NCBI GenBank assembly: GCA_041667145.1
Contig: JBAYFP010000003.1
Coordinates: 8,424-72,423, forward strand
Direction: 5' to 3'
Source of the DNA: Minisyncoccota bacterium
Lineage (GTDB): Bacteria > Patescibacteriota > Minisyncoccia > Phycocordibacterales > UBA9973
Length of the DNA: 64,000 bases
Under the pieces are notes generated by a model, which ran no database searches, was not told the origin of the DNA, and worked only from the letters and a program-made list of their open reading frames with translations. Numbering within the stretch: position 1 is the stretch's first letter; the number at the start of each line of letters is the position of its first letter. Below are positions 23,603 to 61,914 of this stretch, piece after piece. The position numbers were made by a program, and so were the translations under genes.

Positions 23603-23657
23603 TTATTAATTATACCACCCCGAACAAGATTTAGAAATCTCTTAAGGGACAGGTATT

Positions 23658-25292: not shown

Positions 25293-25312
25293 CTCTAAAT
25301 TATACTACATTT

Positions 25313-28879: not shown

Positions 28880-29075
28880 ATATAAATTAAAAAACTCGTC
28901 CACGTACAACAATTAATAATTGCTATACAAGGACGAGTTTCTTCTCGTGGTACCACCTTGGTTACTTCTCATTACCGCTATAACGGGCTTACCCGTCGGG
29001 TTCTACTTAATTTCCTCCCGAAGCTCAGAGGTGATAACCTCCTCAATGCCTATAAATAAAGTATAGCATAAAATT
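28880..29075 (-). promoter_or_regulatory. T-box riboswitch leader upstream of ileS (putative Ile specifier; terminator/antiterminator).
   Basis: The minus strand reads AACCAAGGTGGTACCACGAG, which matches the T-box consensus AGGGUGGNACCGCG at 12 of 14 positions. A downstream helix CTCGTCC...GGACGAG plus UUUUUU ends 12 nt before the ATG. An upstream hairpin GAGG-AGGTTATCA-CCTC contains AUC. Confidence 0.65.
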
Positions 29076-39832: not shown

Positions 39833-39866
39833 ATTTAAATTATACCAAAATATTTAACTATAAACC

Positions 39867-39906: not shown

Positions 39907-39926
39907 AATTAATATATAATAATATT

Positions 39927-44451: not shown

Positions 44452-44477
44452 AAAAATATTGTATCACATTATTACTC

Positions 44478-46280
44478 TCATTGTGTTTCTCCCCAACCTT
44501 GCACATTCCATGCCCCTGATGGACCACCTACAAAATTTTGATTAATCAATCCACTATCATAAATAAGATCAGAATCATTACCTAGATCTATGCCATACCC
44601 AGTAAGTTGTCTTGCTTTAGCTTTACTTCGTACATCGATTATCCCATTTGCAGCATATAAAATGACAGCTTCTACCTTACTACTCAATGTAATAGCATCA
44701 TCACCATTACAGCTCGGATCAAAAGGACAATTACTAGTAGTTAAAGCTAGAACGTAACTTTTAGAATTTCCAGAAGTAAATTCTGCATCATTACTAATAG
44801 TAATATTACCATCGACGATTATAGCCACACTTGCACCTCCATATGAATCTGATGGTTTTACTATAGCCCTATGATCCACACGAAGGTTCCCAGTAATCCA
44901 AAGTGTGCCAGTAAGCGTAAGAATATCTTTATCATCTAAATGAAAATTGCCATTAATTTTTTTAGGACCTAGAGTTACTCCATGACCACCAGGTATATAA
45001 TCACCATTTATAATTCCACCCGCCAAAGCATCATCCTTCCAATCTTGTATATTTTGGTCTGAGATAGGCATAGCGATAGAAACTGGATCAGCTAAAGATG
45101 TATTACAAGCTCCATTATTAGTTCCAGTATTATTACTTCCAATTTGGCAATAATTCGTTCCAACAATAGAAGAATTTTTTACTGTATGAGCATAAGCATT
45201 CCCAGTGCTATTTTGTCCAATATCAATATTATCAATCGAACCAACTAACCCTTGTAAATAAATCCTAAAAAACAAATCTGCATTTGATGGAGAAACTTCA
45301 CTCCAACCATGATCATGATGATGGTGGTCATGAGAATAACTTCCAATCAGAGCAAAACCATCCGTATAAGAAGTATTGGCACCTATAGTGTAATAATTAT
45401 TATGATCATTATTACTTTCAATAACCAACCAATAACTCTGACCACTAATAAGATTCGGAATGGAGTCAAATGTCACTGTCACCCAACCATACGAAGTAGA
45501 AACCAGAGAAGCAGACAATGTCCCGCGTGCTAAATAGTCTCTCACATCATCTGGCTCACTACTCATATCGTGGGCAATATAAACTGTCGCGTTAGATGGA
45601 TGTCCCACCTTTTTTATATAAATTTCTGCTTTATTTAGAGGTCCAGTGTTATCAACAATAAAACTTTGGGCAATATCTGCGCTAGAATCATGTTGACCAA
45701 AAGATAAATTATATGCTGGGGTGCCAGAACCATTTTCTTGATCAGCCTCCAATGCTGAGCTATTAGCTGATGTGACACTACCTGTGACATCAGCATTACC
45801 CGTCCCAATTACAGGACCATTAGAATAAATACTGCCATCTATAAATGATTTATCTCCCATACGAAAACCCCATTCACCAGCTTGGATACCATAACTAAAA
45901 GAAAGCCCATCGCCAATACTTAAAGACAAGGCATTTTTTCTCTGATAACTCAAAACATCTCCCATAGAAATGATATTCTTTAAACCAAAACTAGTATCTG
46001 TAATATTTGTAACCACAGAATTTCCATTAAGATTTAATGTCTCACTACTAGATATCGCCATATTCTTTCTTATACGATATATCGCATCTTCGCTTCCTGA
46101 TTCAGATAAAAAATATGACTTCTTTGAATTCAAACTCATATTGGCATCTTTAAATTCACTTACTGTCGGTGAAACAAGACCTGAAATTATTGCCAGAGAA
46201 ATAAAAAGAAAAAAAACAATAGATACAAGCATCGCTGCTCCGGATTGATTATTTATTTTTCTTTTCTTTTCTTTTTGCAT
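44478..46280 (-). CDS. Large PilX-like minor pilin / candidate pilus tip-associated protein.
   Basis: 600 aa. The N-terminus QSGAAMLVSIVFFLFISLAIISGL resembles the PilX N-terminal domain. His-rich patch HDHHHHDHGW. It is the last gene of the pilus operon. Confidence 0.5.
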   Translation of the reverse strand: MQKEKKRKINNQSGAAMLVSIVFFLFISLAIISGLVSPTVSEFKDANMSLNSKKSYFLSESGSEDAIYRIRKNMAISSSETLNLNGNSVVTNITDTSFGLKNIISMGDVLSYQRKNALSLSIGDGLSFSYGIQAGEWGFRMGDKSFIDGSIYSNGPVIGTGNADVTGSVTSANSSALEADQENGSGTPAYNLSFGQHDSSADIAQSFIVDNTGPLNKAEIYIKKVGHPSNATVYIAHDMSSEPDDVRDYLARGTLSASLVSTSYGWVTVTFDSIPNLISGQSYWLVIESNNDHNNYYTIGANTSYTDGFALIGSYSHDHHHHDHGWSEVSPSNADLFFRIYLQGLVGSIDNIDIGQNSTGNAYAHTVKNSSIVGTNYCQIGSNNTGTNNGACNTSLADPVSIAMPISDQNIQDWKDDALAGGIINGDYIPGGHGVTLGPKKINGNFHLDDKDILTLTGTLWITGNLRVDHRAIVKPSDSYGGASVAIIVDGNITISNDAEFTSGNSKSYVLALTTSNCPFDPSCNGDDAITLSSKVEAVILYAANGIIDVRSKAKARQLTGYGIDLGNDSDLIYDSGLINQNFVGGPSGAWNVQGWGETQ

Positions 46281-46321
46281 TTTTTCTTTTTAACTTTCTA
46301 CTTTATAAACTTTATAACTAC

Positions 46322-46825
46322 TCAATAATTTCCACGAAGTACAACCGTATCATAAAAATCTTCCGTACGACTTTGTGAATCACGATTGGACTTAACAGTT
46401 AAAAATACTTTTACAGCTTTACCTTTTGTTGTATCTATTTGGGTAAAAATAATATCTGTCACGATTATATTGGATGTGTTTAAATTTGCTGTAAATATAT
46501 TATTTTCCAAAAATCTAATATCTGAACCAGAAAGCGAAAATTCTACTGTCTTTTCGTCCCCCGTACTATCTTTTGTATCAAGTGTTAAATCATTTGTATT
46601 TATAAAATTTATATCGGATGCTTGTCTTATTTCTCGAGAAATTCTTTCCATTACATTTCCACCCTGCATTAGATCCGCTTGAATCACCGTTTCTTTATAA
46701 GCTTTTGTCATAGTGATCAATGAATCAATCACTGCAATAGAAATAATAGCAAAAAGGGCAATATAAAAAAGTGTTTCTAGTAATGCATAACCTTTATTCG
46801 TTTTTTTTATACTGAAAATTTTCAT
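46322..46825 (-). CDS. Prepilin-type pseudopilin / minor pilin.
   Basis: 167 aa. KGYALLETLFYIALFAIISIAV is a class III signal-peptide-like N-terminus. Confidence 0.55.
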   Translation of the reverse strand: MKIFSIKKTNKGYALLETLFYIALFAIISIAVIDSLITMTKAYKETVIQADLMQGGNVMERISREIRQASDINFINTNDLTLDTKDSTGDEKTVEFSLSGSDIRFLENNIFTANLNTSNIIVTDIIFTQIDTTKGKAVKVFLTVKSNRDSQSRTEDFYDTVVLRGNY

Positions 46826-47292
46826 GAAAAAATATCTGTTATATAAAATTGCAATGTCTTTACTACTGTCGCGCCTCCCTCAGGCCAAGATACTGTCACT
46901 GTAACTAATTTTGTTCCTGAATCAGGAGTGCCACCAAGACTGACGATTTTCGAAGTATCGTCTCTATTAACATTCGTTATGTTAACCGTACGTGTAAAAA
47001 TCCCAATTGTGGAAGAAGTAGACGATAAAGTCCAAATTTTATTAACACTATCAAAAGTCGGATAGTAAGTGCCATTAGAAATATTACTCCAAGCATTATC
47101 ACGAACGACTCGAACGACTTCAGCTCCTTCTTCTAATAAAAAAGATGTCTGATAAATGTGTAAAGACTGACGAGAGATAGAAATAGCTTTTTGTGTGACA
47201 AACATCGCAGCCAGCATAGAAACGACAATAATAGAAATACCTACTAATATTTCAACAGTCATAAAACCTCCATTTTTTCTAAAATTTGTCAT
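46822..47292 (-). CDS. Prepilin-type pseudopilin / minor pilin.
   Basis: 156 aa. GGFMTVEILVGISIIVVSMLAA N-terminus. Confidence 0.55.
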   Translation of the reverse strand: MTNFRKNGGFMTVEILVGISIIVVSMLAAMFVTQKAISISRQSLHIYQTSFLLEEGAEVVRVVRDNAWSNISNGTYYPTFDSVNKIWTLSSTSSTIGIFTRTVNITNVNRDDTSKIVSLGGTPDSGTKLVTVTVSWPEGGATVVKTLQFYITDIFS

Positions 47293-47295
47293 TTT

Positions 47296-47769
47296 TTAAT
47301 TTACACTAACTGTCCCCGTTGGAGAAATCGTTATAATTTTAGAGTAAGAAGACGTAGATATTGTAACTGTATTTACGCCAGAATTACTCGGTGTCCCCGA
47401 GGGACGATTAAAATAAATATCTCCAGATGTCCCACTTACACCATTGATTGTAACATTTGAAATAACGGCAGGTGAAGTTATATTTGTTGTTTTATTATCA
47501 ACTGCATTAGACGAAAAAACTTTACCCTTAAAAAGAATCATTTTATCAGATTGAAAATGTACACCATACTCTGAAGAATTTACCGAAGCCAAGCTTTGAG
47601 CTTGCGCAGTATGAAGTACAGAAGTGATATCACCTACTGTATTTTTAAGTATTTGATTTTCTTTCATTTTTGAAAATTGTGGTAATACAACCGCAACTAA
47701 AATACCAATAATAGCGACAACCATCAGCATTTCAATCATCGTTATTCCTTTTTTATAAAAATTTTGCAT
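47296..47769 (-). CDS. Type IV pilin (candidate major pilin).
   Basis: 157 aa. KKGITMIEMLMVVAIIGILVAVVLP resembles the G/FTLIEL prepilin methylation motif. Confidence 0.65.
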   Translation of the reverse strand: MQNFYKKGITMIEMLMVVAIIGILVAVVLPQFSKMKENQILKNTVGDITSVLHTAQAQSLASVNSSEYGVHFQSDKMILFKGKVFSSNAVDNKTTNITSPAVISNVTINGVSGTSGDIYFNRPSGTPSNSGVNTVTISTSSYSKIITISPTGTVSVN

Positions 47770-49004
47770 TATTTTATATTATCCATTACTGAATACAAAG
47801 GTGAAATCATAGAAATAGCAAAAAATCCGACAGCAGCACCGATAAATACCATGAGCACCGGCTCAATAATCGTGGAAAGGTTTTTTGTTTTATTTTCTAT
47901 TTCTTCTTCATAAAAAAGAGCTACTTGAAGCAACATATCAGATAGTTTCCCCGTCTCCTCTCCGACCTCTATCATCTCCGACATCATTATCGGGTAAAGA
48001 TATGGATTTTCTGAAAAAGCTTTAGAAAAAAGCGCACCTTTTTGTATATCTTCCTTAGCCTGCATCAAAACTTTTTTATAATAAATATTCTGCACGACAT
48101 CTCCTGTTATCTCTATCGCTCGAATTATGGAAACTCCTGACAATAATAAAGAAGACATGGTGCGTGTAGTGCGAGCAGTGTTTAATTCTTTAGATAATTT
48201 ACCAATAATCGGCAACCTTATAACTATAAAATCAATATACTTCTTCATAAAAGGAGCCCGAAATAAATAAATAAAACCGACAACAAACCCTATTATCAAG
48301 CCAAAAGACAAAATCAAATATTGGGAAAAGAAAGTACCCAAAGCAATTATGAATTCTGTCGAGGCTGGAAGTTTCGTCCCGAGTTCTTTAAAAGTCCCTG
48401 CAAGCGTCGGCACGACAAATGCAAACATCAAAATACCTATTATGACCATGGCGCAAAGTATCACTCCTGGATACATGAGTGCCCCTTTTACTTTTTTAGT
48501 TATTGAATGAGCTTTTTCTAAATTCATACCGACTTCAGACAATGCACCAGCAAAATTGCCTGATTCCTCACCTGCTTTTGTCATCGATATAAAAAGATTA
48601 GAAAAAGTTTTTGGGAATTTTGCTAAACCTGAAGAAAGTGTTCCACCCGTATCTATCTCGTTGCTCAATGATGTTAAAATATTACTAAATGCAGGATTTT
48701 TGGTTTGTTTTTTAAGAACTGATAATGCTCTTGAAAGAGAAAGCCCCGCTCGAAGCATTCCGCCTAAATTTTTAGTAAAAAGAATTTGTTCTTCAATTTT
48801 TACTTTCGAAAAAATACGAGCAAAAATCAATGAAAAATCAAGCGAAGTAATTTTTTTCTCTTTTATGGATCTAGGAATGTTTCCCTTGGATCTTAATTCA
48901 CGAGAAAGTGAAAAACGATCGACTGCCTCCATCGTGCCTTCAAAAATTTCTCCCGTCTTCAATTTTGCCTTATAAGAGAAGAGCATATTATTCTGATACA
49001 ACAC
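47769..49004 (-). CDS. pilC: Type IV pilus / T2SS platform protein PilC (GspF family).
   Basis: 411 aa. Duplicated T2SSF domains with three TM segments. Confidence 0.85.
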   Translation of the reverse strand: MLYQNNMLFSYKAKLKTGEIFEGTMEAVDRFSLSRELRSKGNIPRSIKEKKITSLDFSLIFARIFSKVKIEEQILFTKNLGGMLRAGLSLSRALSVLKKQTKNPAFSNILTSLSNEIDTGGTLSSGLAKFPKTFSNLFISMTKAGEESGNFAGALSEVGMNLEKAHSITKKVKGALMYPGVILCAMVIIGILMFAFVVPTLAGTFKELGTKLPASTEFIIALGTFFSQYLILSFGLIIGFVVGFIYLFRAPFMKKYIDFIVIRLPIIGKLSKELNTARTTRTMSSLLLSGVSIIRAIEITGDVVQNIYYKKVLMQAKEDIQKGALFSKAFSENPYLYPIMMSEMIEVGEETGKLSDMLLQVALFYEEEIENKTKNLSTIIEPVLMVFIGAAVGFFAISMISPLYSVMDNIK

Positions 49005-50763
49005 GAAATACTTCTTCCAAACTCGTATTCCCTAAAACTGCTTGAAAAACACCATCCTCGAGAATCGTCATCATCCCCTCCTTTTTCGCTTGCACCTCTA
49101 TTTCATCTTGAGAACTTCCACGAATAATCATTTCTTTTATAGAAGCCGTCACTTTTAACACTTCATGTATTCCAATACGACTTGCATACCCATCTACTGA
49201 TTCAGCATTCTTCACTGGTTTATAAAATGGAACTGTCGCCCACGTATCTTTTGGTCCTATGACTTTTTCATTTTTTAATAATAAAAGCATACGATCGAGA
49301 TCAATGAGTTTCGCTAAATTTTTCAACTCATCTGTTGATAAAAAATATTTCTCTTTATTCGATACAAGCTTTCGCACTAATCTCTGCGCAATGATAGTTT
49401 TTACTGTCGAAATTATCAAAAATGGCAACACTCCCATATCTATCAATCTTGGGATAGCCCCTGAAGCGGAATTGGTATGTATCGTAGACAATACAAGATG
49501 TCCTGTAAGAGAAGCATTCACTGCGAGCCCTGCTGTCTCTCCATCACGGATCTCTCCGACCATGATGATATCGGGGTCTTGACGCAAAAGAGAACGAAGT
49601 CCATTTGCAAAGGTAAGTCCGATTTCTGGTTTTACTTGAGTTTGGTTCACACGTGGCATTTGATACTCTATCGGATCTTCTACTGTAGAAATATTTACTT
49701 CTGGTCTATTTAGAATTTCAAGAAGAGTATAAAGCGTCGTCGTCTTTCCGCTTCCTGTAGGCCCTGTGGCGAGCACCATACCTATCCTTTGTTTCATAGA
49801 ATCATGAATGCGTTCGAGTCCTTCGCCATGGAAACCAAGTGTCTCGAGAGAATATCCATGCGCCCCTTCTTTTAAGATTCTTATTACTGTCTTTTCACCA
49901 TAAAAAGTCGGAAGAGTAGAAACACGGAAGGAAACCCTTTCTCCATTTTGTTCGATTTTAAATCTGCCGTCTTGAGGCAATCTTTTTTCATCCAATTTTA
50001 AATTCGCCAGCACTTTTATACGAGTTGTTATACCCGGGCCCGCTCCTCTCTCTAGTATCATGGCATCATGTAAAATACCATCGATCCTGTATCTGACAGT
50101 CAATTCATTTTCTCCTGGTTCAATATGAATATCGGAAGCATTTTGCAAGATGGCATGAAAGATTAAAGAGTCTACAATTTTTACCACTGGTAAATCTTCA
50201 GCCAATTCTTTTAGTTCTTCGCCAGTTTTTTCTAAATTTTCTTCACTCTCACCAATCGGAACAGATTTCTTTAAATCATCTTTCAATGAGACAGCTTCCT
50301 TTTGAATAAAATTACTAAAATCAGCTTGCAAACTTTTTCTGTATTGTACAAGAGCTGATTTTATTGAGACACTGTCTGTAAGTCTAGAAAGAATTTTTTC
50401 TCCTGCACGTTTTTTAATAAAATCGATCATCGGAAGATCATCGACATCGAGCATCGCTATTTCAAGCCCTGTATCACTTTTTTTATAAGCAATAATATTA
50501 TGATTTCTAGCTATCGGTTCAGGAATGAGAGAGAGCACAGAAAGATCAATCTTTTTATTAACTAAACTGACAAAAGGTATTCCTAAAACAAATGCTTCCA
50601 TCCTTTTCAAATCAGTTTCAGATATTTTCCCATTTGATAATAAAATATCACCAAGTTTTTGTTTTTTTGTTTCTGCTTCTTTTACTAAACCATCGATATC
50701 AGAACGCGAAACAAGTCCAGATTCTAAAATAACTTTTTTAAATTGCTCCTCATCGATTACCAT
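48988..50763 (-). CDS. pilB: Type IV pilus assembly ATPase PilB (GspE family).
   Basis: 591 aa. Walker A VLATGPTGSGKTTTLYTLL. Asp and His boxes. N-terminal T2SSE_N domain. Confidence 0.9.
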   Translation of the reverse strand: MVIDEEQFKKVILESGLVSRSDIDGLVKEAETKKQKLGDILLSNGKISETDLKRMEAFVLGIPFVSLVNKKIDLSVLSLIPEPIARNHNIIAYKKSDTGLEIAMLDVDDLPMIDFIKKRAGEKILSRLTDSVSIKSALVQYRKSLQADFSNFIQKEAVSLKDDLKKSVPIGESEENLEKTGEELKELAEDLPVVKIVDSLIFHAILQNASDIHIEPGENELTVRYRIDGILHDAMILERGAGPGITTRIKVLANLKLDEKRLPQDGRFKIEQNGERVSFRVSTLPTFYGEKTVIRILKEGAHGYSLETLGFHGEGLERIHDSMKQRIGMVLATGPTGSGKTTTLYTLLEILNRPEVNISTVEDPIEYQMPRVNQTQVKPEIGLTFANGLRSLLRQDPDIIMVGEIRDGETAGLAVNASLTGHLVLSTIHTNSASGAIPRLIDMGVLPFLIISTVKTIIAQRLVRKLVSNKEKYFLSTDELKNLAKLIDLDRMLLLLKNEKVIGPKDTWATVPFYKPVKNAESVDGYASRIGIHEVLKVTASIKEMIIRGSSQDEIEVQAKKEGMMTILEDGVFQAVLGNTSLEEVFRVVSE

Positions 50764-50777
50764 AACTCCATTATATC

Positions 50778-50805
50778 AAAAAATCCCCCACATGGGGGAT
50801 TTTTT
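50778..50805. terminator. Bidirectional hairpin aaaaaatccccca-cat-gggggatttttt.
   Basis: Perfect 11 bp stem flanked by A and T runs, between pilB and the upstream 840 aa gene. Confidence 0.55.
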
Positions 50806-50824
50806 GATAAATAAATTTTTATTT

Positions 50825-53347
50825 TTACCACTCTAAAAGAACATACCCAGATTTACCATTAGCACCAGTTCCAGCATGAATACCACCAGAAGCACCGACA
50901 CCAAAACCACTACCATTAGTACCAGAGAAAAAAGTCAAACCACCTTTACCAACAACTTCACCTGTAGAACTTGTGCCAGAAATTCCATCTGTACCAGATT
51001 CACCGTCAATTCCATCAACACCAGAAGTGACAGAACCACCAGAACCACCAGAACCAGGAGCAGGGGGATTATTGCCACCTGTCCCCCCAGCCGTACCACC
51101 AGAACCACCTAAGGCAAATACACTCGTTGAAGAATTAGTTACATACACTCCAGCCTTCACTCCAGAATAACCATTCCTTGTAGCAAGACCACCAGAACCA
51201 CCACCACCACTATATATTTGAATCCAATCACCTTCCGTCACAGTAATTTCTCTCTTAAAAATAAATCCACCACCACCACCACCACCACCGGGACCACCGT
51301 TAAATGAACCACTACCAGCATAACCACCACCACCACCACCACCACCACCGGCGACTGCAGTAACCCAAATTTTTGTTACACCGTTGGGTACAATCCATTT
51401 AATGGGCACAGCATAATCTAAAGAACCTTTATAATACAATCTCCCACTTGGTGTCGCTGCTGTCTTTTGTATTGTATCATCAGGAAACTTAAAACCAGAA
51501 AAAGATTTAACATTACCAGTAGCGTCTATTATCATCCTAAGAGAATTAGACATGTTCCCTCCTGTATAAAATCTTATATCACCTTCAGGAGTTAAACTAC
51601 TATTATTATATGCAACAATATTTAATCCCCCTGCGCCACTTGCGTCAAGTAATGCCCCATTTGGAATAGCTATATCACCATTACTGCCAGAAACAAATCC
51701 AGAAGAAAATACATCTAACTGTACAGTAGCTTTATCTGATTCACTTATAATTTGGTTCATAACATTGGGTCCTGTATTTTTGTTTCGAACCGATAATCCA
51801 CCTGTCGTATTTATTTTACCGTTTACTTCCAACTTAGCATTTGGTGCTGTTGTTCCTGTTCCAATCCCAACATTTCCCCCATTAAACAATATATCACCTA
51901 CGTTTGGTATATTATTTTTCGCATTAACATTAACAATTCCAATAACTGTCCCATCAGAACCTGTACAATTGCCAACACTATTATTCGTACATATAGCGCC
52001 ATAAGAATAAATACTATCATTAGCGGCTATACTTTGCGCTCCTAATGCATAATAAGCATTATTTGCCCCAGTTCCACTTCCAGAAGAACCACCAGCAACA
52101 AATAATTTGCTTAGTGGAGCCGTTGTCCCAATTCCAACATTACCTGAACCTTTTATAACTAAAGCGTCACTCGTTATACCACTTGCAAAATTATTAGATG
52201 TTCCAAAATGTAATTCAGAGCCACTTGCTGTCGGCAACATTGCTATTTTTGCTATTGGTGTAGAATTTAATGAATATCTAAATGAAATAGTTGAATAATT
52301 ATTAATAGTACCTCCAGAAATTTTTAATATTCCAGAATTCACAGTATTACCTAAAAACGAGGTCTCTCCGCTCGTATCAGTAAGCTCTAATTTCGCAGTT
52401 GGATTAGTATTTCCTATCCCCACATCCCCACCAGCATTGTAATAAATATTCGTCCCATTCGTCGTCCATTGACTAGCTACTACTGCACTTGGCGTGACCC
52501 ACGTCGGCACACCAGCACCATTTGATTGCAATACCTGACCTGCAGTACCAGCCAAACCACCTGGCATAAGTGCACCAGAGAATTTAATATTTCCAACAAC
52601 ATCTAATTTTTCTGCAGGCTCTATTGTCCCAATACCAAAATTCGCACCATTATTAATATAACTTTTTATACCTACCCCTCCTAAAAAATTATTATTAGGA
52701 CCTGTAGTGTTACCTGTACCAAAAATCGCCAAGCCCAACCCGGACTTTCGGATATACATATTCTGCCCAACAGTATCAGAAAAAACTAAATTAGGAGACA
52801 AAACACTAGAAGCTGTATTGTTCTTTAAAATAAAGGCAGCTGTATAATCACTACTTATAGATTTAATAGTACCTAAAGCATCCACATTTCCATTGACATA
52901 CAATTTTGCTGTACCTGCATCATTTGCACCAATAGCCACACCGCCATTATTTGCAGTATATCCCCCAGGATAAATTGCTAAGTCTCCATTCCAAGCACCC
53001 ATATCAACAATTCCAGGAGTATCTCCTGTTCTTTCTAGTCGCAACTGTACACCCAAGTTTTCAGCCGATACATGTAATTTTGCTGCGGGGATTGTTGCTG
53101 TTACTTCACCAGTTCCAATACCAACCTTCCCGTCAAAAACCGCAGTTGTAAAAGATTTAAAACCATTGACAGCAAAAGCACCATCTTTTTGTTGGGGAAC
53201 AGTACCTGCATTTATTGGAGGATTAATATCACCTCCAGTTGGAGATGTGAGTGGAGCACTGTAACCTGCAGCAAAAATTTGTATTGATAAAGCAAACAAT
53301 GCCAACACTAGAACTGATTTTAAAATTACTTTTATTTTTTGACTCAT
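50825..53347 (-). CDS. Large secreted protein with tail-fibre-like G-x-V-G-I-G-T-x-x-P-x-A-K-L-x-V repeats and a Gly-rich C-terminal domain.
   Basis: 840 aa. Signal peptide. At least five copies of G[ND][VF]GIGT..P.AKL[EHD][VL]. C-terminal poly-Gly blocks (GGGGGGGGYAGSGSFNGGPGGGGGGGG) ending in YVLLEW. Lies immediately upstream of pilB in the same orientation. Confidence 0.5.
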   Translation of the reverse strand: MSQKIKVILKSVLVLALFALSIQIFAAGYSAPLTSPTGGDINPPINAGTVPQQKDGAFAVNGFKSFTTAVFDGKVGIGTGEVTATIPAAKLHVSAENLGVQLRLERTGDTPGIVDMGAWNGDLAIYPGGYTANNGGVAIGANDAGTAKLYVNGNVDALGTIKSISSDYTAAFILKNNTASSVLSPNLVFSDTVGQNMYIRKSGLGLAIFGTGNTTGPNNNFLGGVGIKSYINNGANFGIGTIEPAEKLDVVGNIKFSGALMPGGLAGTAGQVLQSNGAGVPTWVTPSAVVASQWTTNGTNIYYNAGGDVGIGNTNPTAKLELTDTSGETSFLGNTVNSGILKISGGTINNYSTISFRYSLNSTPIAKIAMLPTASGSELHFGTSNNFASGITSDALVIKGSGNVGIGTTAPLSKLFVAGGSSGSGTGANNAYYALGAQSIAANDSIYSYGAICTNNSVGNCTGSDGTVIGIVNVNAKNNIPNVGDILFNGGNVGIGTGTTAPNAKLEVNGKINTTGGLSVRNKNTGPNVMNQIISESDKATVQLDVFSSGFVSGSNGDIAIPNGALLDASGAGGLNIVAYNNSSLTPEGDIRFYTGGNMSNSLRMIIDATGNVKSFSGFKFPDDTIQKTAATPSGRLYYKGSLDYAVPIKWIVPNGVTKIWVTAVAGGGGGGGGGYAGSGSFNGGPGGGGGGGGFIFKREITVTEGDWIQIYSGGGGSGGLATRNGYSGVKAGVYVTNSSTSVFALGGSGGTAGGTGGNNPPAPGSGGSGGSVTSGVDGIDGESGTDGISGTSSTGEVVGKGGLTFFSGTNGSGFGVGASGGIHAGTGANGKSGYVLLEW

Positions 53348-53393
53348 AATTTTTAATTAATTAATAAATTTATCTAATAATTATACTACTTTT

Positions 53394-54347
53394 TTAATGT
53401 TCTATATATGTTGGAATTTTAGTATCAACAGGGTCTGGTATTGGGATAATACACTCTTCCGGTTTTGGATCAGCATCACAATATTCTGGTGGTTTTCGCA
53501 AGAGGAAAACTGGATCTGCATTAATAATTTTACTATTTAAATTATCAAAACAATGTAAATCGTATTTTACTGGACTCTCGCTAACAGGGACAATAACTAT
53601 TTTAGAAGAGGAACTACCCAACGCAGGAGCATCCTCTACATCTCCATCCCAAGAAATATCACTAGAAGTATTTGAAGCTTTACAATCAGTCAATTTACTA
53701 CTTGTCATTGAACTCCAACTAAGTTTATTTTTATATAAAGGAGGGTAAGAGTAAGTAACTGGTGCTGAATTAAAATTAATCATTGAGGTACCAGCAATTT
53801 TCATCACAACTTTACTAAAATCAATCCATCCGACAATATCAGGACCACCCCAAGCATAGCTATCCGCTGTTTGATTTAATTTAACTCCATAATTTGCTCC
53901 ACTTAAACTAACCCACCCATCCCATCCACCAGTAGCAGTCGTTGGCAATAAAGCACCAGAACATCCAGATGCAAATACTGAACAAAATCTTGCCCAACCG
54001 ACGAGATTATTACCCTCTTTTCGTGCAGAACATATACCTGAAGGACAACCAGTGAGTTCATTACTATTGAAACTCAACCAGCCATAATTAGAAGACCACG
54101 CATAACCAGAAACATCCCCAGATAGATCAATATTTACACCATAATCTGCAATACCACAATTCCCAGTAGAAACACAATTATTAAAAGAAAGCCAACCCAT
54201 ACCACCCCCCTCACTATCAGCTGACCACCCATATCCTGAAACATTTTGTAAAACACTTGAATCTACTGGATGGTTAAAACCAAAATAAACAGAAAAAATC
54301 AAAATCGTAACACTCACTATAAGAAAATTTTTAAAATTATTTTTCAT
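53394..54347 (-). CDS. Secreted repeat protein (G-Y-x-W-S...G-W-L-S-F-N repeats).
   Basis: 317 aa. Signal peptide. Repeated GYGWSADSEGGGMGWLSFNN, GYAWSSNYGWLSFNS, GWARF and GWIDF. Cys pairs. Confidence 0.4.
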   Translation of the reverse strand: MKNNFKNFLIVSVTILIFSVYFGFNHPVDSSVLQNVSGYGWSADSEGGGMGWLSFNNCVSTGNCGIADYGVNIDLSGDVSGYAWSSNYGWLSFNSNELTGCPSGICSARKEGNNLVGWARFCSVFASGCSGALLPTTATGGWDGWVSLSGANYGVKLNQTADSYAWGGPDIVGWIDFSKVVMKIAGTSMINFNSAPVTYSYPPLYKNKLSWSSMTSSKLTDCKASNTSSDISWDGDVEDAPALGSSSSKIVIVPVSESPVKYDLHCFDNLNSKIINADPVFLLRKPPEYCDADPKPEECIIPIPDPVDTKIPTYIEH

Positions 54348-54353
54348 AAACTT

Positions 54354-54782
54354 CTATGGTTTAAAATTATTTAATGAATTTAATATATCATTTTGATTTA
54401 TGTCTGGTGCTTTAAAAGAATTTAAGTCGTTCATTACTTCTGCTTCAGTTTTTGGCTTAGTTTGAGTTTTTGATTTTACACCAACATTCGAAGAGTTATC
54501 GTCTACTGTACCGGTAGTTGTAGAAAGAACAGTCGGAGCCTTAAATGAATTTAGTTCTTTTGTTACTTCCGTTTCAGTTTTCACATTGGCTGGATCTAAC
54601 TTAAAACTATTAAGTTCAGTCATCACTGCTTCTTGGCGCAACTGCTCAGCAGTTTTTTGCTCAGCTGTCCTCTCTTCCGTATTCTTCGTAAGATTTTGAT
54701 TTTCAATATATAAGTAAACACCGACAGCACAGGAGATAACTACCAAAAACAAAACTAGTAAAATAATATTTTTCCTAGACAT
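54354..54782 (-). CDS. Small membrane-anchored protein with four [ED]LNSFKAP repeats.
   Basis: 142 aa. N-terminal TM segment. ELNSFKLDP, ELNSFKAPT, DLNSFKAPD and LNNFKP. Confidence 0.35.
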   Translation of the reverse strand: MSRKNIILLVLFLVVISCAVGVYLYIENQNLTKNTEERTAEQKTAEQLRQEAVMTELNSFKLDPANVKTETEVTKELNSFKAPTVLSTTTGTVDDNSSNVGVKSKTQTKPKTEAEVMNDLNSFKAPDINQNDILNSLNNFKP

Positions 54783-54849
54783 ATCATTTATTATACAACA
54801 TTAAAATATATAAAGGAAAGAAATAGAAGATGTGGATAAGTAAAAAGTA

Positions 54850-54888: not shown

Positions 54889-54916
54889 GAGTCCTGTCGC
54901 AACAGGGCTTTTTTAT
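54889..54916 (+). terminator. Leader hairpin (gtcctg-tcgcaa-cagggc) followed by a U-run, about 10 nt downstream of the predicted promoter. Candidate nusA leader attenuator.
   Basis: 6 bp stem followed by ttttttatt. Confidence 0.4.
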
Positions 54917-56368: not shown

Positions 56369-58399
56369 CTACATGAACAAAGCTACTAGTGCGAGAGAAA
56401 GAGTTCCTAGCAATTTTACCAACACGTGTAGAGAAGGACCAGATGTATCTTTGAATGGATCACCGACAGTATCTCCTGTGACAGCTGCTTTATGAGCTTC
56501 ACTACCCTTTCCGCCTAGATTCCCCATTTCAATATATTTTTTAGCATTGTCCCAAGCTCCACCAGCATTGTTCATAAGAGTAGCAAGGAGAATACCAGCG
56601 ATAGTACCTACCATGATGAGTCCCGCCTCTGCTTCTGCTTTCATAAATACTCCGACGAGTATAGGCACAGCAACAGCGAGTACTCCTGGTAAAATCATTT
56701 CTCTTAAGGCTGCTTTAGTGGTGATATCTACGCATGCTGCGTAATCAGGTTTACTCGTTCCTGCCATTATTCCTGAATCAGCTTTAAATTGACGTCGAAC
56801 TTCTTCAACAATTTTTCCTGCTGCTTTTCCTACGGCCATCATTGTAAGACCAGAGAAAAAGAAAACTAACATTGCTCCTATCAATGCAGCAACGAAAACT
56901 TCTACTTTTGCTAAGTCTACAGTAGCAATTCCTGCCTCTTGTAAAAATGCTGAGAAAAGTAAAAAGGCTGCAAGTGCTGCACTACCCATGGCATATCCTT
57001 TAGTCAAAGCCTTTGTAGTATTTCCTGCAGAATCAAGTTTGTCTGTCCTTTGTCTTACTGCTTCTGACGCACCAGACATTTCAACTATTCCACCTGCATT
57101 ATCTGTGATTGGTCCAAATGTATCCATGGCAAGAACATATGCAGCAGTAGCTAACATTCCCATAGTAGCGACAGCTGTACCATAAAGTCCTCCTGAAGCA
57201 AAACCTGTCATCGCTCCTAATTTAAATGAACAGAGAAGGGCTGCAGAAATAGTGACGACAGTTGCTGCTGTACATTCAAAGCCTACAGAAAGTCCTGCGA
57301 TAATATTCGTAGCATGCCCAGTCTTAGAAGCGTTTGCAATGGACTGCACAGGTCTGTATTTGTGTTCTGTATAATATTGAGTGATAAATACAAAGGCAAT
57401 ACTTGCGACGATACCTACCAACCCTGCGTAAAAGAATAATACATTACCTAACATATCCATCGTGACGAAATAGAAAGCGACAGTAGCCAAAGCACAAGTG
57501 ACAAAATATCCTTTATTTAAAGCTTTCAATGGCTCATCTTCCTCTTTTGCCTTAGCAAACATTACTCCGATAATAGCCGCAAGTAATCCAAAACCTCTGA
57601 TAACTAATGGGAAAATAATACCGTTAATTCCAAAATGAGGGAAAAGAGCAACACCTAAAATCATTGCTCCGATATTTTCTGCTGCAGTTGATTCAAAAAG
57701 ATCTGCTCCACGGCCTGCGCAATCTCCGACATTGTCTCCGACTAAGTCAGCAATAACGGCTGGATTTCTTGCATCGTCTTCAGGAATTCCTGCTTCAACT
57801 TTACCGACTAAATCTGCTCCGACATCTGCTGCCTTTGTGTAAATTCCTCCTCCGAGCTGAGCAAAAAGTGCCACCAAGCTAGCTCCAAAACCGAAACCGA
57901 CGAGTAAGGCTGGAATTTGTATTGCTGTATATCCCAATAATCCATAAATATAATAAAGTCCTGTGATACCTATCAAACTCAAAGCAACTATAGTAATTCC
58001 AGAAACTGCTCCGGCTCTTAAAGCAATAGTCAATGCTTTACTCAAGCTCGTTTGTGCCGCAGAAGCCGTTCTGATGTTTGACCTGACAGAGATCCACATA
58101 CCGACAAGACCAGAAAGTCCTGAGAGGGCAGCACCTAAAAGAAAAGCGAGTCCGACTTGAAGACCTGCCTCAGGTTTTCCATTTAAAGCATAAACTCCGT
58201 AAAGTAATAATGCTAAACAAACAGCCATAATGCCAATGGTCTTATATTGTCTTTTTAAAAACGCATTTGCACCCTTTTTGATAGCTTCATAAATTTCCTG
58301 CATTTTTAATGTACCCATATCTTGTTTTTTAATCCAATAAACGAGATATCCGGCAAAAAGTAAAGCAAGAAGAGATATAATAAATGAAGTTAATAACAT
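56369..58399 (-). CDS. hppA: Membrane-bound proton/sodium-translocating pyrophosphatase.
   Basis: 676 aa. Signature GGIYTKAADVGADLVGKVE. 15 to 16 TM segments. Confidence 0.95.
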   Translation of the reverse strand: MLLTSFIISLLALLFAGYLVYWIKKQDMGTLKMQEIYEAIKKGANAFLKRQYKTIGIMAVCLALLLYGVYALNGKPEAGLQVGLAFLLGAALSGLSGLVGMWISVRSNIRTASAAQTSLSKALTIALRAGAVSGITIVALSLIGITGLYYIYGLLGYTAIQIPALLVGFGFGASLVALFAQLGGGIYTKAADVGADLVGKVEAGIPEDDARNPAVIADLVGDNVGDCAGRGADLFESTAAENIGAMILGVALFPHFGINGIIFPLVIRGFGLLAAIIGVMFAKAKEEDEPLKALNKGYFVTCALATVAFYFVTMDMLGNVLFFYAGLVGIVASIAFVFITQYYTEHKYRPVQSIANASKTGHATNIIAGLSVGFECTAATVVTISAALLCSFKLGAMTGFASGGLYGTAVATMGMLATAAYVLAMDTFGPITDNAGGIVEMSGASEAVRQRTDKLDSAGNTTKALTKGYAMGSAALAAFLLFSAFLQEAGIATVDLAKVEVFVAALIGAMLVFFFSGLTMMAVGKAAGKIVEEVRRQFKADSGIMAGTSKPDYAACVDITTKAALREMILPGVLAVAVPILVGVFMKAEAEAGLIMVGTIAGILLATLMNNAGGAWDNAKKYIEMGNLGGKGSEAHKAAVTGDTVGDPFKDTSGPSLHVLVKLLGTLSLALVALFM

Positions 58400-61210: not shown

Positions 61211-61914
61211 AAACACTTGGACATCGGATGTCCAAGTGTTTAATTTTCTAATTCTTTTAACATTTCTTTTCTTAATTCCATATCTTCCAACGATGAAGAG
61301 ACAAAGTCCTCGTACTCTTTTTTATTTCTAAACTGTTCTAGCACAATATTTGTATTACAAAATTTATTATTTAACGTTTCATCTAAAAATTCATTCAAAC
61401 TTGATTTACTCAACTTAGACATCGGATGTCCAAGTTTGTTATTTCCATTAATATAAGCGCTAAGGTGAAGCAAATATTCATTTGAATCAATATGTTTTGA
61501 TTTAAATTTACCTTGGAAAAGAACACCGCTACGTTTATGCCTATTATTAAAATATTTTGTATACCCATTCCCCAACCTCTGCATAAATTTCTCAACCCCT
61601 TTCTCTTGAAGAGGAGTAATTAAAAAATGAAAGTGATTAGGGTTCATACAATAAGCAATAAATTGTACAAGCGGTTTCTTTTTTTTATTAGCTTCGCCAA
61701 ACTTTTTCTTAAAAGAAAATTCATAAACACTACCGATTGGCTCTGTTTGATTAAAATCAAATATACTTTCACAAAAACGAAATAAATCCTTTTCATCAAC
61801 AAAAATATTCCTCTTATCTGTTCCACGATTATAAATATGATAATACTCATTAATTGCAAAAGAATGTTTTCTCATACTCAAACTATATCACTTGGACATC
61901 GGATGTCCAAGTGG
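61211..61914 (-). mobile_element. REP-RAYT-REP unit B, inserted between tig and clpP. Its cognate palindrome family REP2 (ttggacatcggatgtccaa) is distinct from REP1.
   Basis: Palindromes at 61211..61241 (overlapping the stop codon), 61412..61436 (inside the coding sequence) and 61889..61914 (8 nt upstream of the start and 37 nt upstream of clpP). Confidence 0.7.
61240..61881 (-). CDS. IS200-like Y1 HuH transposase of the RAYT type, paralog of 1830..2486.
   Basis: 213 aa. [15 protein letters not shown], the HuH motif NPNHFHFLI, and [23 protein letters not shown]. About 40% identical to RAYT A across the conserved blocks. Confidence 0.8.

What the first reader, a model, noticed from the sequence alone, without database searches (positions are those of the whole stretch)
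50825..54782. Type IV pilus operon preceded by three repeat-rich secreted proteins, including a tail-fibre-like Gly-rich 840 aa protein
Upstream of pilB, in the same orientation, lie three genes. First, a small protein with four [ED]LNSFKAP repeats. Second, a protein with GYxWS...GWLSFN repeats. Third, an 840 aa protein with at least five G-x-V-G-I-G-T-x-x-P-x-A-K-L-x-V repeats, of the kind seen in phage tail-fibre-like proteins, and a poly-Gly C-terminal domain. The operon continues with pilB, pilC, pilin and two pseudopilin genes, and a 600 aa PilX-like protein with a His-rich patch. The combination suggests a pilus-associated adhesin or host-attachment module, which is relevant for an episymbiotic lifestyle.
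Basis: partly seen in the sequence, partly recalled or inferred. Interest (0 to 1): 0.5.

Follow-up and report, generated by a model that had tools for sequence, protein, structure and literature searches.

The report
Surface-fibre gene cassette beside pilus operon
Three genes of an ultrasmall (CPR/Paceibacterota) bacterium form a conserved, fast-evolving cassette for a phage-tail-fibre-like surface fibre plus two unknown membrane partners. It sits next to a type IV pilus operon but is probably transcribed separately, so it is a likely host-attachment device and not part of the pilus.

Summary
All three genes, their repeats, the Gly-rich end and the downstream pilB-pilC-pilin-PilX-like genes are where stated.

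- **The 840-aa protein is a mosaic fibre.** It has a Sec signal peptide, then a CPR-specific N-terminal motif. Its stalk family matches, among solved structures, only Bdellovibrio MAT trimeric fibres (plus one S74-chaperone chain matched through other family members). Its Gly-rich tip belongs to the family of the cyanophage Pam3 tail fibre.
- **The 317-aa protein founds an unannotated family.** At least 456 species-level genomes encode it. In 42 of 53 genomes it lies within two genes of a fibre gene carrying the same N-terminal motif, often with a small membrane protein bearing short repeats. Together they form a conserved three-gene cassette.
- **The cassette is not one operon with the pilus genes.** A strong hairpin-plus-T-run and a TGnTATAAT box exactly 6 nt before the pilB ATG separate them, and both signals recur in relatives.
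- **The two modules separate in evolution.** One close relative lacks the pilus operon at this site; other genomes lack the fibre. Pilus linkage is enriched (16 of 79 loci) but not obligatory.

Best reading: an autonomous surface-fibre adhesin system that may cooperate with the pilus.

The parts
54790..54795 (-). TATAAT box 7 nt before the p142 ATG; probable leaderless-type promoter that starts the cassette
   Evidence: Sequence read. TATAAT-to-start distance peaks sharply at 6 nt: 5 of 55 window genes (one more, p142, at 7 nt), and 34 of 1039 genes in 80 related loci against a background of about 2-3 per position.
54354..54782 (-). p142: small bitopic membrane protein. N-terminal helix, then a Thr/Asn/Lys/Glu-rich region with four [ED]LNSFK(A)P short repeats
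   Evidence: Homologues with the same build (ELESFKIP, EILESLTAP, VLDSLTS) lie directly upstream of p317-family genes in related loci. No curated family: all Pfam and NCBIfam hits are far below cut-off.
53394..54347 (-). p317: founder of an unannotated CPR family. N-terminal helix (res 1-25, 54273-54347); beta-hairpin domain with four GYAWS..GWISF repeats (res 36-182, 53802-54242); Ig-like domain (res 190-284, 53496-53780); conserved extreme C-terminal tail P-x-[YF]-x-E-x (res 306-317, 53397-53432)
   Evidence: No Pfam, NCBIfam or PHROG hit. 712 homologues. 456 confirmed loci in species-representative genomes. AF2 model pLDDT 83.6. Only generic Ig-like structural matches. No PDB sequence relative. 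Tail motif statistics.
53270..53347 (-). p840 signal peptide (res 1-26)
   Evidence: Read from the sequence: positive n-region, hydrophobic core, IFA|AG. The same N-terminus is conserved in fibres at the same position in other genomes.
53159..53269 (-). p840 N-terminal motif (res 27-63): A-W-T-x-P-T-x-x-P-P-x-x-N-x-x-x-P-I-N-x-G-x-x-x-Q-x-K-x-G. Shared by a CPR family of fibre-like proteins of very different length
   Evidence: P, N, Q, K and G are invariant in 23 aligned copies. Proteins with this motif cluster at +1, +2 and -1 of p317-family genes.
51488..53158 (-). p840 stalk (res 64-620) with five GxVGIGTxxPxxKLxV units and the conserved module KLFVAGG...YALGAQSIAANDSIYSYGAIC
   Evidence: p840 alone matches Bdellovibrio Bd2133 (8OND) at E 7.5e-6. 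The family profile matches five Bdellovibrio MAT fibre structures, best E 9.6e-30.
50828..51487 (-). p840 tip (res 621-840): Gly-rich domain of the Gly_rich_2 / phage tail-fibre type
   Evidence: PF21722 at 19.0 bits, below the 24.3 cut-off. 41 of 42 nearest relatives pass PF21722. The tip alone hits phrog_863 (4.8e-8) and phrog_6202 tail fiber (8.6e-7). The tip-family profile hits the cyanophage Pam3 tail fibre 7YPX/7YFW at 8.8e-19.
50774..50809 (-). Intrinsic-terminator-like hairpin after p840: 17-bp perfect arms, 2-nt gap, A-run before and T-run after
   Evidence: dG -26.2 kcal/mol, z -5.03, 0 of 200 shuffles as stable; I5. Equivalent hairpins precede pilB in L001, L002, L004, L012, L013, L016, L033, L056 and L068.
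50770..50778 (-). TGATATAAT (extended -10), 6 nt before the pilB ATG; probable leaderless pilB promoter
   Evidence: A TATAAT-type box lies 6-8 nt before the pilB start in nine related loci, preceded by TGn in most.
48988..50763 (-). pilB: type IV pilus assembly ATPase
   Evidence: T2SSE 1.8e-117 and MshEN 9.8e-10. TIGR02538 493 bits, below its 675.65 equivalog cut-off.
47769..49004 (-). pilC: platform protein; overlaps pilB by 17 nt
   Evidence: T2SSF 1.3e-53; PilC and GspF models.
46322..47769 (-). Three pilin / minor-pilin genes (47296-47769, 46822-47292, 46322-46825), tightly packed
   Evidence: N_methyl / TIGR02532 match for the first above cut-off; N_methyl for the third below cut-off; for the second only a weak PilV hit and the sequence itself. 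Cleavage motifs G|ITMIE, G|FMTVE and G|YALLE are read.
44478..46280 (-). p600: PilX/GspK-like large minor pilin with a lectin-like middle domain and a His patch (45309-45332). The likelier pilus-tip adhesin
   Evidence: Hydrophobic N-terminus without Glu5. choice_anch_R 27.6 bits against a cut-off of 30. Lectin_like weak. Conserved at the end of the pilin cluster in relatives.

Best explanation
**What it is.** The three genes are a self-contained cassette for a cell-surface fibre. They are not the first genes of the pilus operon.

**p840 (inferred from homology).** It is exported through Sec and forms a trimeric mosaic fibre of the kind described for Bdellovibrio MAT proteins and phage tail fibres. 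Its parts are:
- a lineage-specific N-terminal motif at the cell-proximal end;
- a stalk of GNVGIGTxxPxxKLxV units;
- a swappable distal tip, here a Gly-rich domain of the same family as the cyanophage Pam3 tail fibre, which binds something on the host cell.

**p317 and p142 (inferred only from gene neighbourhood).** Both are membrane-anchored with their bulk outside the cell. p317 carries GW-type repeats, an Ig-like domain and a conserved C-terminal tail; p142 carries short linear repeats. I take them to be the dedicated partners that hold or assemble fibres of this N-terminal type on the envelope.

**Transcription (predicted from sequence).** The cassette is transcribed from its own TATAAT box and ends at a strong terminator. 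pilB-pilC-pilins-p600 start from their own leaderless promoter.

**Relation to the pilus.** The two modules are neighbours more often than chance allows and may act in sequence, with the fibre recognising the host and the pilus pulling. Either module can also exist without the other.
For: **Fibre identity.**
- p840 matches 8OND Bd2133 at E 7.5e-6.
- The stalk-family profile hits five Bdellovibrio MAT structures, from 9.6e-30 to 6e-8. The only other hit is the MYRF S74-chaperone chain 7DC3.
- The tip belongs to the Gly_rich_2 / tail-fibre / Pam3 family.
- A signal peptide is present.

**Mosaicism at one chromosomal position.**
- Fibres of 509, 539, 635, 760, 761, 840, 1060 and 2061 aa share the N-terminus.
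- Their tips differ: Gly_rich_2, YadA_head plus Peptidase_S74, or no known domain.

**Fast evolution.** nusA is 82-91% and pilB 76-86% identical between these genomes. p142 is 25-63%, p317 37-50% and p840 26-48%, the last two over partial lengths.

**Cassette partnership.**
- In 79 species-level loci, N-motif genes sit at +1 (30%), +2 (26%) or -1 (17%) of the p317-family gene. Beyond four genes the rate is 1.2%.
- 42 of 53 complete neighbourhoods have one.
- A small helix-plus-repeats protein lies just upstream in about 25-30 loci by loose criteria (31 small same-strand helix-bearing ORFs, a few of which are N-motif proteins) and in 11 of 53 by a strict pattern.
- In the distant locus L066 the trio occurs in a different order (small, fibre, p317).

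**Separate transcription.** Hairpin and promoter; genome-wide peak of TATAAT at 6 nt.

**Separability.**
- L011 is a close relative (nusA 89%) and has the cassette followed by TIM, with no pilus genes.
- L039, L048 and L060 are similar.
- L024, L068 and L015 have the p317 gene directly before pilB with no fibre.
- IS200-like or Por_Secre_tail genes are inserted between fibre and pilB in L001 and L004-6.

**Not viral.** No p317 relative and no match to the one N-motif DNA pattern tested in IMG/VR. The flanking genes are housekeeping genes.
Against: - No experiment or transcript data are available. The terminator and promoter are predictions, and read-through into pilB is possible, because GGAG lies 6 nt before the pilB ATG.
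- Trimer formation and surface display are inferred from homology only. The monomer AF2 model of p840 is poor (pLDDT 52).
- The partner role of p317 and p142 rests on gene neighbourhood alone. Sampled from the fibre side, only 6 of 17 N-motif genes have a p317-family gene within two genes, and 9 of 17 anywhere in the locus. Many fibres are therefore encoded away from any p317 gene.
- The conserved p317 C-terminal tail does not correlate with having a fibre neighbour (p = 0.74).
- The ligand of the tip is unknown.
- The p840 tip itself scores below Pfam's cut-off for Gly_rich_2.
Confidence: 0.6

Rival explanations
1. One reading: all nine genes form one operon, and the three upstream proteins are pilus-associated adhesins or accessory parts displayed on or by the type IV pilus.
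For: - Same strand and close spacing, with 61 nt between p840 and pilB.
- pilB lies downstream on the same strand in 15 of 42 species loci with enough sequence, and in 11 of 15 loci that share the nusA context.
- In L066 the trio directly follows the pilin genes.
- GGAG before the pilB ATG would suit translation from a read-through transcript.
Against: - A conserved strong hairpin with T-run, plus TGnTATAAT 6 nt before pilB.
- Other genes are inserted between the two modules in relatives.
- A close relative has the cassette without pilus genes.
- None of the three proteins has a prepilin signal.
- Only 5 of 25 p317 loci with eight genes on each side, and 1 of 17 fibre-centred loci, have pilB or pilC nearby.
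Confidence: 0.12
2. p317 and p142 are not fibre partners. They are lineage-specific envelope components of the pilus machine, for example standing in for the missing PilMNOPQ parts, and the fibre genes merely insert next to them.
For: - The p317-family gene lies directly upstream of pilB, with no fibre between, in L024, L068 and L015.
- When pilB is in the locus it is usually 1-4 genes downstream of p317.
- No PilM/N/O/Q or PilD gene is seen in the window.
Against: - Most p317-family loci have no pilus gene nearby (63 of 79).
- 42 of 53 have an N-motif fibre gene within two genes.
- The family has many copies outside any pilus context.
Confidence: 0.13
3. p840 and its relatives are structural envelope proteins (an S-layer-like or wall-associated coat) and do not bind the host. 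The tail-fibre resemblance reflects only a shared fibrous fold.
For: - CPR cells have unusual envelopes.
- N-motif proteins occur in tandem arrays, some with collagen-like G-x-y tracts (L070).
- No ligand is known.
Against: - The tips are swapped between close relatives, and the proteins evolve much faster than their neighbours. This is the pattern of receptor-binding proteins.
- The closest characterised relatives are prey- or host-binding fibres.
Confidence: 0.1
4. The 840-aa gene is a remnant of a prophage or a tailocin tail fibre.
For: PHROG tail-fibre hits and the Pam3 tail-fibre match for the tip.
Against: - No other phage gene is nearby; the flanks are nusA, the pilus genes, TIM and PGK.
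- The same chromosomal position is occupied in many species.
- The protein has a Sec signal peptide.
- No match to the tested N-motif DNA pattern and no p317 relative in viral contigs.
Confidence: 0.03

Closest known systems
Bdellovibrio bacteriovorus MAT (mosaic adhesive trimer) fibre proteins, e.g. Bd2133 (PDB 8OND); Caulton et al. 2024, PMC10769870
   Same: - Long secreted proteins with a conserved cell-proximal N-terminus, a stalk of the same repeat (sequence match) and interchangeable C-terminal tips, some ending in the S74 chaperone.
- Used by a bacterium that lives on other bacteria.
- The paper itself raises a possible interplay with type IV pili.
   Different: - The N-terminal motif here is a CPR-specific one. 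It was found in 13 of the 120 best p840 relatives and in none of the five relatives that their sources name as Bacteroidota.
- The tip is a Gly-rich phage-type domain, which the parts of the paper read here do not list among MAT tips.
- The fibre genes come with two conserved partner genes, p317 and p142. No partner or anchor is known for Bdellovibrio MATs.
- Whether the Bdellovibrio N-terminal domain is related could not be tested.
Phage tail fibres with the glycine-rich domain (Pfam PF21722 Gly_rich_2; cyanophage Pam3 tail fibre, PDB 7YPX/7YFW; PHROG 6202 and 863)
   Same: The C-terminal 200 residues belong to the same sequence family, and the domain sits at the C-terminal end of the protein.
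   Different: - This is a cellular gene with a Sec signal peptide, in a housekeeping neighbourhood.
- The N-terminal attachment part is unrelated to phage baseplate-binding domains.
- The direct Pfam score is below cut-off (19.0 against 24.3 bits).
Type IV pilus tip adhesins and large minor pilins (PilY1/PilC, PilX/GspK type) and the type IV pili used for host binding by Saccharibacteria (PMC11623550)
   Same: - Encoded next to pilB, pilC and pilin genes in an organism of the same superphylum.
- A plausible role in attachment to a host cell.
   Different: - The three cassette proteins lack prepilin signals and have their own predicted promoter and terminator.
- In this locus the protein that fits the minor-pilin adhesin class is the 600-aa protein at 44478-46280, not the three upstream proteins.
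Aromatic-repeat wall- or glycan-binding modules (choline/cell-wall binding repeats, Listeria GW modules)
   Same: p317 has short Gly-Trp/Tyr-rich beta-hairpin repeats in an extracellular domain of a membrane-anchored protein.
   Different: No sequence or structural match to these families. The resemblance is in flavour only and comes from my own knowledge, not from a test.

Membership tests
MAT-type / tail-fibre-like trimeric fibre | Stalk built from the repeat seen in solved MAT fibre beta-helix regions | tested here: met
   p840 alone matches 8OND at E 7.5e-6, with aligned GNVGIGTTAPxxKLxV units. The family profile matches 8OND at 9.6e-30 and also 8OML, 8OL4, 8OJN and 8ON4.
MAT-type / tail-fibre-like trimeric fibre | Mosaic build: conserved N-terminus, variable C-terminal tip | tested here: met
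   Fibres at the same position share the N-terminus but carry Gly_rich_2, YadA_head plus Peptidase_S74, or an unknown tip.
MAT-type / tail-fibre-like trimeric fibre | Homotrimeric fibre displayed on the cell surface | not testable with these tools
   Only monomer prediction is available, and it gave pLDDT 52. The signal peptide supports export.
MAT-type / tail-fibre-like trimeric fibre | The invariant N-terminal domain of the Bdellovibrio MAT proteins | not tested
p840 carries a different-looking, CPR-restricted motif.
Pfam PF21722 Gly_rich_2 (phage tail-fibre glycine-rich domain) | Score above the curated Pfam cut-off | tested here: inconclusive
   - Direct score 19.0 bits against a cut-off of 24.3 (E 1.6e-3).
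- 41 of 42 nearest relatives pass, best 2.9e-41.
- The family profile that includes p840 hits the Pam3 fibre at 8.8e-19.
Peptidase_S74 (intramolecular chaperone) tail-fibre subclass | C-terminal S74 chaperone domain | tested here: not met
   No PF13884 hit in p840. The domain is present in the positional counterparts in L001 and L007.
Same operon as the type IV pilus genes | No terminator or promoter between p840 and pilB; tight coupling conserved | tested here: not met
   - Hairpin dG -26.2 kcal/mol, z -5.0, with a T-run.
- TGATATAAT 6 nt before the ATG, conserved in relatives.
- Gene insertions, and loss of the whole pilus block in relatives.
- Prediction only; no transcript data.
Type IV pilin / minor pilin (for p142, p317, p840) | Short charged leader, G|F/M-x-x-x-E cleavage motif, then a hydrophobic helix | tested here: not met
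   No N_methyl / TIGR02532 hit for the three proteins. In all three the hydrophobic segment comes before any candidate cleavage site, not after it.
Type IVa pilus system (downstream genes) | PilB ATPase, PilC platform, prepilin-type pilins | tested here: met
   - T2SSE 392.6 bits, T2SSF 180.7 bits and N_methyl 25.9 bits, all above their Pfam cut-offs.
- NCBIfam equivalog cut-offs for PilB and PilC are not reached, so these are divergent members.
- PilD, PilT and PilM are not in the window.
Diversity-generating retroelement target | Template/variable repeat pair and a reverse transcriptase nearby | tested here: not met
   No repeat of the cassette or pilus region (44478-54782) elsewhere in the window apart from poly-Gly codons and the p142 repeats.

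The most novel reading that the evidence does not exclude
p317 and p142 could be the long-sought type of cell-surface docking or assembly platform for MAT/tail-fibre-like adhesive fibres. p317 would hold the conserved fibre N-termini and p142 would supply short linear motifs. In Paceibacteria this platform would be genetically coupled to the type IV pilus, giving a two-step capture device in which interchangeable fibres recognise the host and the pilus then retracts. That would give the first identified anchor for this class of bacterial fibres, and a sequence handle (the swappable tips) for predicting the hosts of uncultured CPR bacteria.
Probability: 0.25. Interest if true: 0.75.

Novelty: new variant of a known kind. 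Interest (0 to 1): 0.55.

Why it matters
- **Host attachment in CPR bacteria.** These bacteria make up a large share of bacterial diversity and live attached to other microbes. Apart from type IV pili in a few cultured Saccharibacteria, the molecules that pick and hold the host are unknown.
- **A concrete candidate.** This is a fibre family related to the prey-recognition fibres of Bdellovibrio, with phage-type interchangeable tips. It evolves several times faster than its neighbours.
- **Two unannotated partner families.** The p317 family alone is found in at least 456 species-level genomes. They are testable candidates for the fibre's anchor, which the Bdellovibrio paper says is still unidentified in that organism.
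- **Possible host prediction.** The tips could become markers for host range in metagenomes.
- **Transcription signals.** Genes of this lineage often start 6 nt after a TATAAT box, which helps to draw transcription units in CPR genomes.

Tried and rejected
- **Full-length AF2 model of p840 (alignment A3).** Mean pLDDT 52, so it was not used for fold search.
- **Word-indexed homologue search with the Gly-rich tip.** It was swamped by poly-Gly words and gave only 2 hits. The exhaustive representative search was used instead.
- **Riboswitch or other RNA element.** Nothing reached threshold in Rfam. The only sub-threshold hits lie on the terminator hairpin.
- **tRNA genes in 44-64 kb.** None found.
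- **DGR-type diversification of the tip.** No template repeat found.
- **Prophage origin.** Rejected on context and on the absence of p317 relatives and of the tested N-motif pattern from viral contigs.
- **Lipoprotein reading of p142 (VISC).** The Cys is not conserved in homologues.
- **Prepilin reading of the N-motif (G|FTEP in some homologues).** The hydrophobic segment precedes the site, so this is an ordinary signal peptide.
- **p317 C-terminal tail as a marker of fibre partnership.** No correlation (p = 0.74).
- **Profile-based locus scan with the short N-motif alignment.** It was replaced by a degenerate DNA pattern.
- **Literature.** Searches found no description of this cassette in CPR.

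Full report
**Source and layout**

The 840-aa and 317-aa proteins are identical to hypothetical proteins WCS86_01975 and WCS86_01980 of a Candidatus Paceibacterota MAG, on a contig of 97,953 bp. The window has about 34% G+C.

On the minus strand the genes run in this order:
- p142 (54354-54782)
- p317 (53394-54347)
- p840 (50825-53347)
- pilB, pilC and three pilin-type genes
- a 600-aa protein
- TIM and PGK

nusA is divergent on the other side. The rest of the window is housekeeping: RecA, EF-P, FtsK, aminoacyl-tRNA synthetases and RecJ. No further pilus genes and no phage genes are present.

**Check of the observation**

- p142 has four LN[SN]FK units.
- p317 has four aromatic GY(A/G)WS...GW(L/I)xF repeats.
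- p840 has five GxVGIGTxxPxxKLxV units, and a C-terminal 200 residues that are one-third glycine, with G9 and G8 runs.
- PilB, PilC and the first pilin are supported by Pfam above cut-off. The other two pilin-type proteins rest on weaker hits and on their G|x-x-x-x-E N-termini.
- The 600-aa protein has a pilin-like hydrophobic N-terminus without Glu5 and the patch HDHHHHDH.

p840 has a classical signal peptide. p142 and p317 have one N-terminal helix that looks like a membrane anchor.

**What p840 is**

Searched alone against PDB sequences, its best hit is Bd2133 of Bdellovibrio (8OND, E 7.5e-6), aligned on the GNVGIGTTAPxAKLxV units.

A profile of p840 and 59 relatives hits five Bdellovibrio fibre structures: 8OND at 9.6e-30, then 8OML, 8OL4, 8OJN and 8ON4. 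The only other hit is the S74 chaperone of MYRF, contributed by relatives that end in that domain.

These Bdellovibrio proteins are the MAT family. According to the paper they are surface-displayed trimeric fibres with an invariant N-terminal domain, a meandering beta-helix stalk and interchangeable adhesive tips, and they are used to recognise prey (PMC10769870).

The p840 tip (residues 611-840) has the following support:
- It found 118 relatives in an exhaustive search of 1.84 billion representatives, many carrying the domain at their very C-terminus.
- 41 of 42 of them are Pfam Gly_rich_2.
- The tip alone hits PHROG tail-fibre families.
- The tip-family profile matches the solved tail fibre of cyanophage Pam3 at E 8.8e-19.
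- p840's own Pfam score is just under the cut-off, so I file the tip as a divergent member on transitive evidence.

The monomer AF2 model is poor. This is expected for an obligate oligomer, but it proves nothing.

**The N-terminus and mosaicism**

After the signal peptide comes a motif (A-W-T-x-P-T-x-x-P-P-x-x-N-x-x-x-P-I-N-x-G-x-x-x-Q-x-K-x-G) with invariant P, N, Q, K and G.

It heads proteins from about 150 to more than 2000 residues in CPR genomes. Some stand in tandem arrays, and some are followed by collagen-like tracts. Only 13 of the 120 best p840 relatives have it. None of the five relatives that their sources name as Bacteroidota does, although they share the stalk repeat.

At the same chromosomal position in related genomes the fibre is 509, 539, 635, 760, 761, 1060 or 2061 aa. 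It ends in Gly_rich_2, in YadA_head plus Peptidase_S74, or in no known domain.

Between these genomes, identities to the window are:

| Protein | Identity |
|---|---|
| nusA | 82-91% |
| pilB | 76-86% |
| p142 | 25-63% |
| p317 | 37-50% |
| p840 | 26-48%, over parts only |

This is the pattern of receptor-binding proteins.

**The unexpected part: a three-gene cassette**

p317 has no Pfam, NCBIfam, PHROG or PDB relative. It nevertheless has 712 homologues and 456 confirmed loci in species-representative genomes. Most of the 80 best loci carry Patescibacteria/Parcubacteria-type names; the rest are labelled only 'bacterium' or 'uncultured bacterium'.

Its AF2 model (pLDDT 83.6) shows four parts:
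- an N-terminal helix;
- a 150-residue beta-hairpin domain built from the GW-type repeats;
- an Ig-like domain;
- a disordered tail ending in the conserved P-x-[YF]-x-E-x.

Structure searches return only generic Ig-like hits.

In 79 species-level loci, genes with the fibre N-motif lie at +1 (30%), +2 (26%) or -1 (17%) of the p317-family gene. Beyond four genes the rate is 1.2%. Of 53 complete neighbourhoods, 42 have one.

A small protein built like p142 lies just upstream in many loci. It has an N-terminal helix followed by 2-4 short repeats such as ELESFKIP, EILDSLS, VLDSLTS or EEILESLTAP.

In the distant locus L066 the trio appears in another order (small, fibre, p317).

Sampled from the fibre side in metagenomes, 6 of 17 N-motif genes with enough flank have a p317-family gene within two genes, and 9 of 17 have one within the locus. 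So p317 nearly always has a fibre neighbour, but many fibre genes lie elsewhere. That fits one platform serving several fibres. It is also the main weakness of the partner idea, which rests on neighbourhood alone.

**Relation to the pilus operon**

Between the p840 stop and the pilB ATG (61 nt) lie two signals:
- a hairpin with 17-bp perfect arms, an A-run before and a T-run after (dG -26.2 kcal/mol, z -5.0);
- immediately after it, TGATATAAT, ending 6 nt before the ATG.

The same pair of signals precedes pilB in L001, L002, L004, L012, L013, L016, L033, L056 and L068. L073 has the TATAAT box alone.

TATAAT 6 nt before a start codon is a lineage-wide signal. It occurs at 5 of 55 genes in the window and 34 of 1039 genes in the 80 loci, against about 2-3 per position elsewhere. 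Shine-Dalgarno motifs are rare. p142 has the same box at 7 nt. I therefore predict two transcription units:
- p142-p317-p840, with a 6-nt and a 46-nt gap, the latter holding another TATAAT;
- pilB to p600, whose genes overlap or nearly touch.

The modules also separate in evolution:
- L011 (nusA 89% identical) has the cassette followed by TIM, with no pilus genes.
- L039, L048 and L060 are similar.
- L024, L068 and L015 have the p317 gene directly before pilB, without a fibre.
- L001 and L004-6 have IS200-like or Por_Secre_tail genes inserted between fibre and pilB.

Even so, pilB is present in 16 of 79 p317 loci, almost always 1-6 genes downstream on the same strand, and in 5 of 25 loci with eight genes on each side. 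L066, and probably L033 and L014, show linkage outside the shared nusA-TIM block. By my own rough estimate, a random gene in a genome of about 800 genes would have pilB this close in a few per cent of cases. The linkage is therefore enriched, but much of it may be inherited synteny. From the fibre side only 1 of 17 loci has pilB or pilC.

**Mechanism proposed, with status of each step**

| Step | Status |
|---|---|
| Export of p840 by Sec | Inferred from the signal peptide |
| Trimeric fibre with a distal binding tip | Inferred from homology to MAT fibres and the Pam3 fibre |
| Host recognition | Inferred from tip swapping, fast evolution and the lifestyle of cultured CPR bacteria (abstracts) |
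| Anchoring or assembly by p317 and p142 | Inferred from conserved neighbourhood only |
| Separate transcription from the pilus genes | Predicted from conserved sequence signals |
| Cooperation with the pilus | Possible, unproven |

The 600-aa PilX-like protein, with its lectin-like middle domain, is the natural candidate for a pilus-borne adhesin.

**Novelty and score**

Tail-fibre-like adhesive fibres in bacteria are known, and type IV pili in CPR bacteria are known. Three things are new here:
- the CPR-specific form of the fibre, combining the N-motif with a phage Gly-rich tip;
- the conserved cassette with two unannotated partner families;
- the clear separation from the pilus operon.

I found no description of it in the searchable literature, which is limited evidence. 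I rate it a new variant of a known kind, with interest 0.55.

Noticed in passing
window 25313-28912 (-): A 1199-aa class I aminoacyl-tRNA synthetase (tRNA-synt_1, Anticodon_1, DUF5915) carries a histidine-phosphatase domain (His_Phos_1, E 8e-27) at residues 526-690, in the middle of the enzyme.
   Followed up: no
window-wide, e.g. 23603-23614, 25293-25304, 39833-39844, 39915-39926, 50764-50775, 54783-54795: TATAAT lies exactly 6 nt (once 7 nt) before the start codon of six of 55 genes. The same sharp peak at 6 nt appears in 80 related CPR loci (34 of 1039 genes). Shine-Dalgarno motifs are rare. This suggests widespread leaderless transcripts in this lineage.
   Followed up: partly
window 53397-53432 (-) and the 120 family members in alignment A1: The p317 family ends in a conserved extreme C-terminal tail P-x-[YF]-x-E-x (P in 75, Y/F in 75 and E in 85 of 120 members), with no membrane segment after it. 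Its function is unknown, and it does not correlate with having a fibre neighbour.
   Followed up: partly
window 2758-5046 and 5315-7516 (-): Two large proteins (762 and 733 aa) whose only known domain is a peptidoglycan-binding PG_binding_1 domain. A similar 678-aa protein follows the fibre gene in locus L007.
   Followed up: no
window 61240-61881 (-) and 1830-2486 (-); L001 15587-16420; L004 13387-14070: IS200-like (Y1_Tnp) genes occur twice in the window. In relatives they sit between the fibre gene and pilB, and the stretch between the insert and pilB holds long perfect hairpins.
   Followed up: no
window 44452-44477 (-), upstream of the TIM gene: GTGATACAAT lies 6 nt before the TIM ATG (an extended -10-like box). 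The pilus operon therefore probably ends at p600, and TIM-PGK are a separate unit.
   Followed up: no
window 56369-58399 (-): The H+-pyrophosphatase is only 49% identical to that of relatives whose adjacent nusA is 82-91% identical. This suggests replacement by a different type or a horizontal transfer.
   Followed up: no
L070 433-2704 and L039 11176-14487: Tandem arrays of three N-motif genes. The L070 copies continue into collagen-like G-x-y tracts (GPTGPQGPVGPTGATGATGP), which fits trimeric fibres.
   Followed up: no
window 54889-54910 (+), in the nusA / p142 intergenic region: A terminator-like hairpin with a T-run on the plus strand lies about 140 nt upstream of nusA, with no plus-strand gene before it. 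No Rfam family and no tRNA is found there.
   Followed up: partly
window 21671-23602 (-): A 643-aa protein with only a weak DUF11 match and a TATAAT box 6 nt before its ATG. It may be another surface protein.
   Followed up: no
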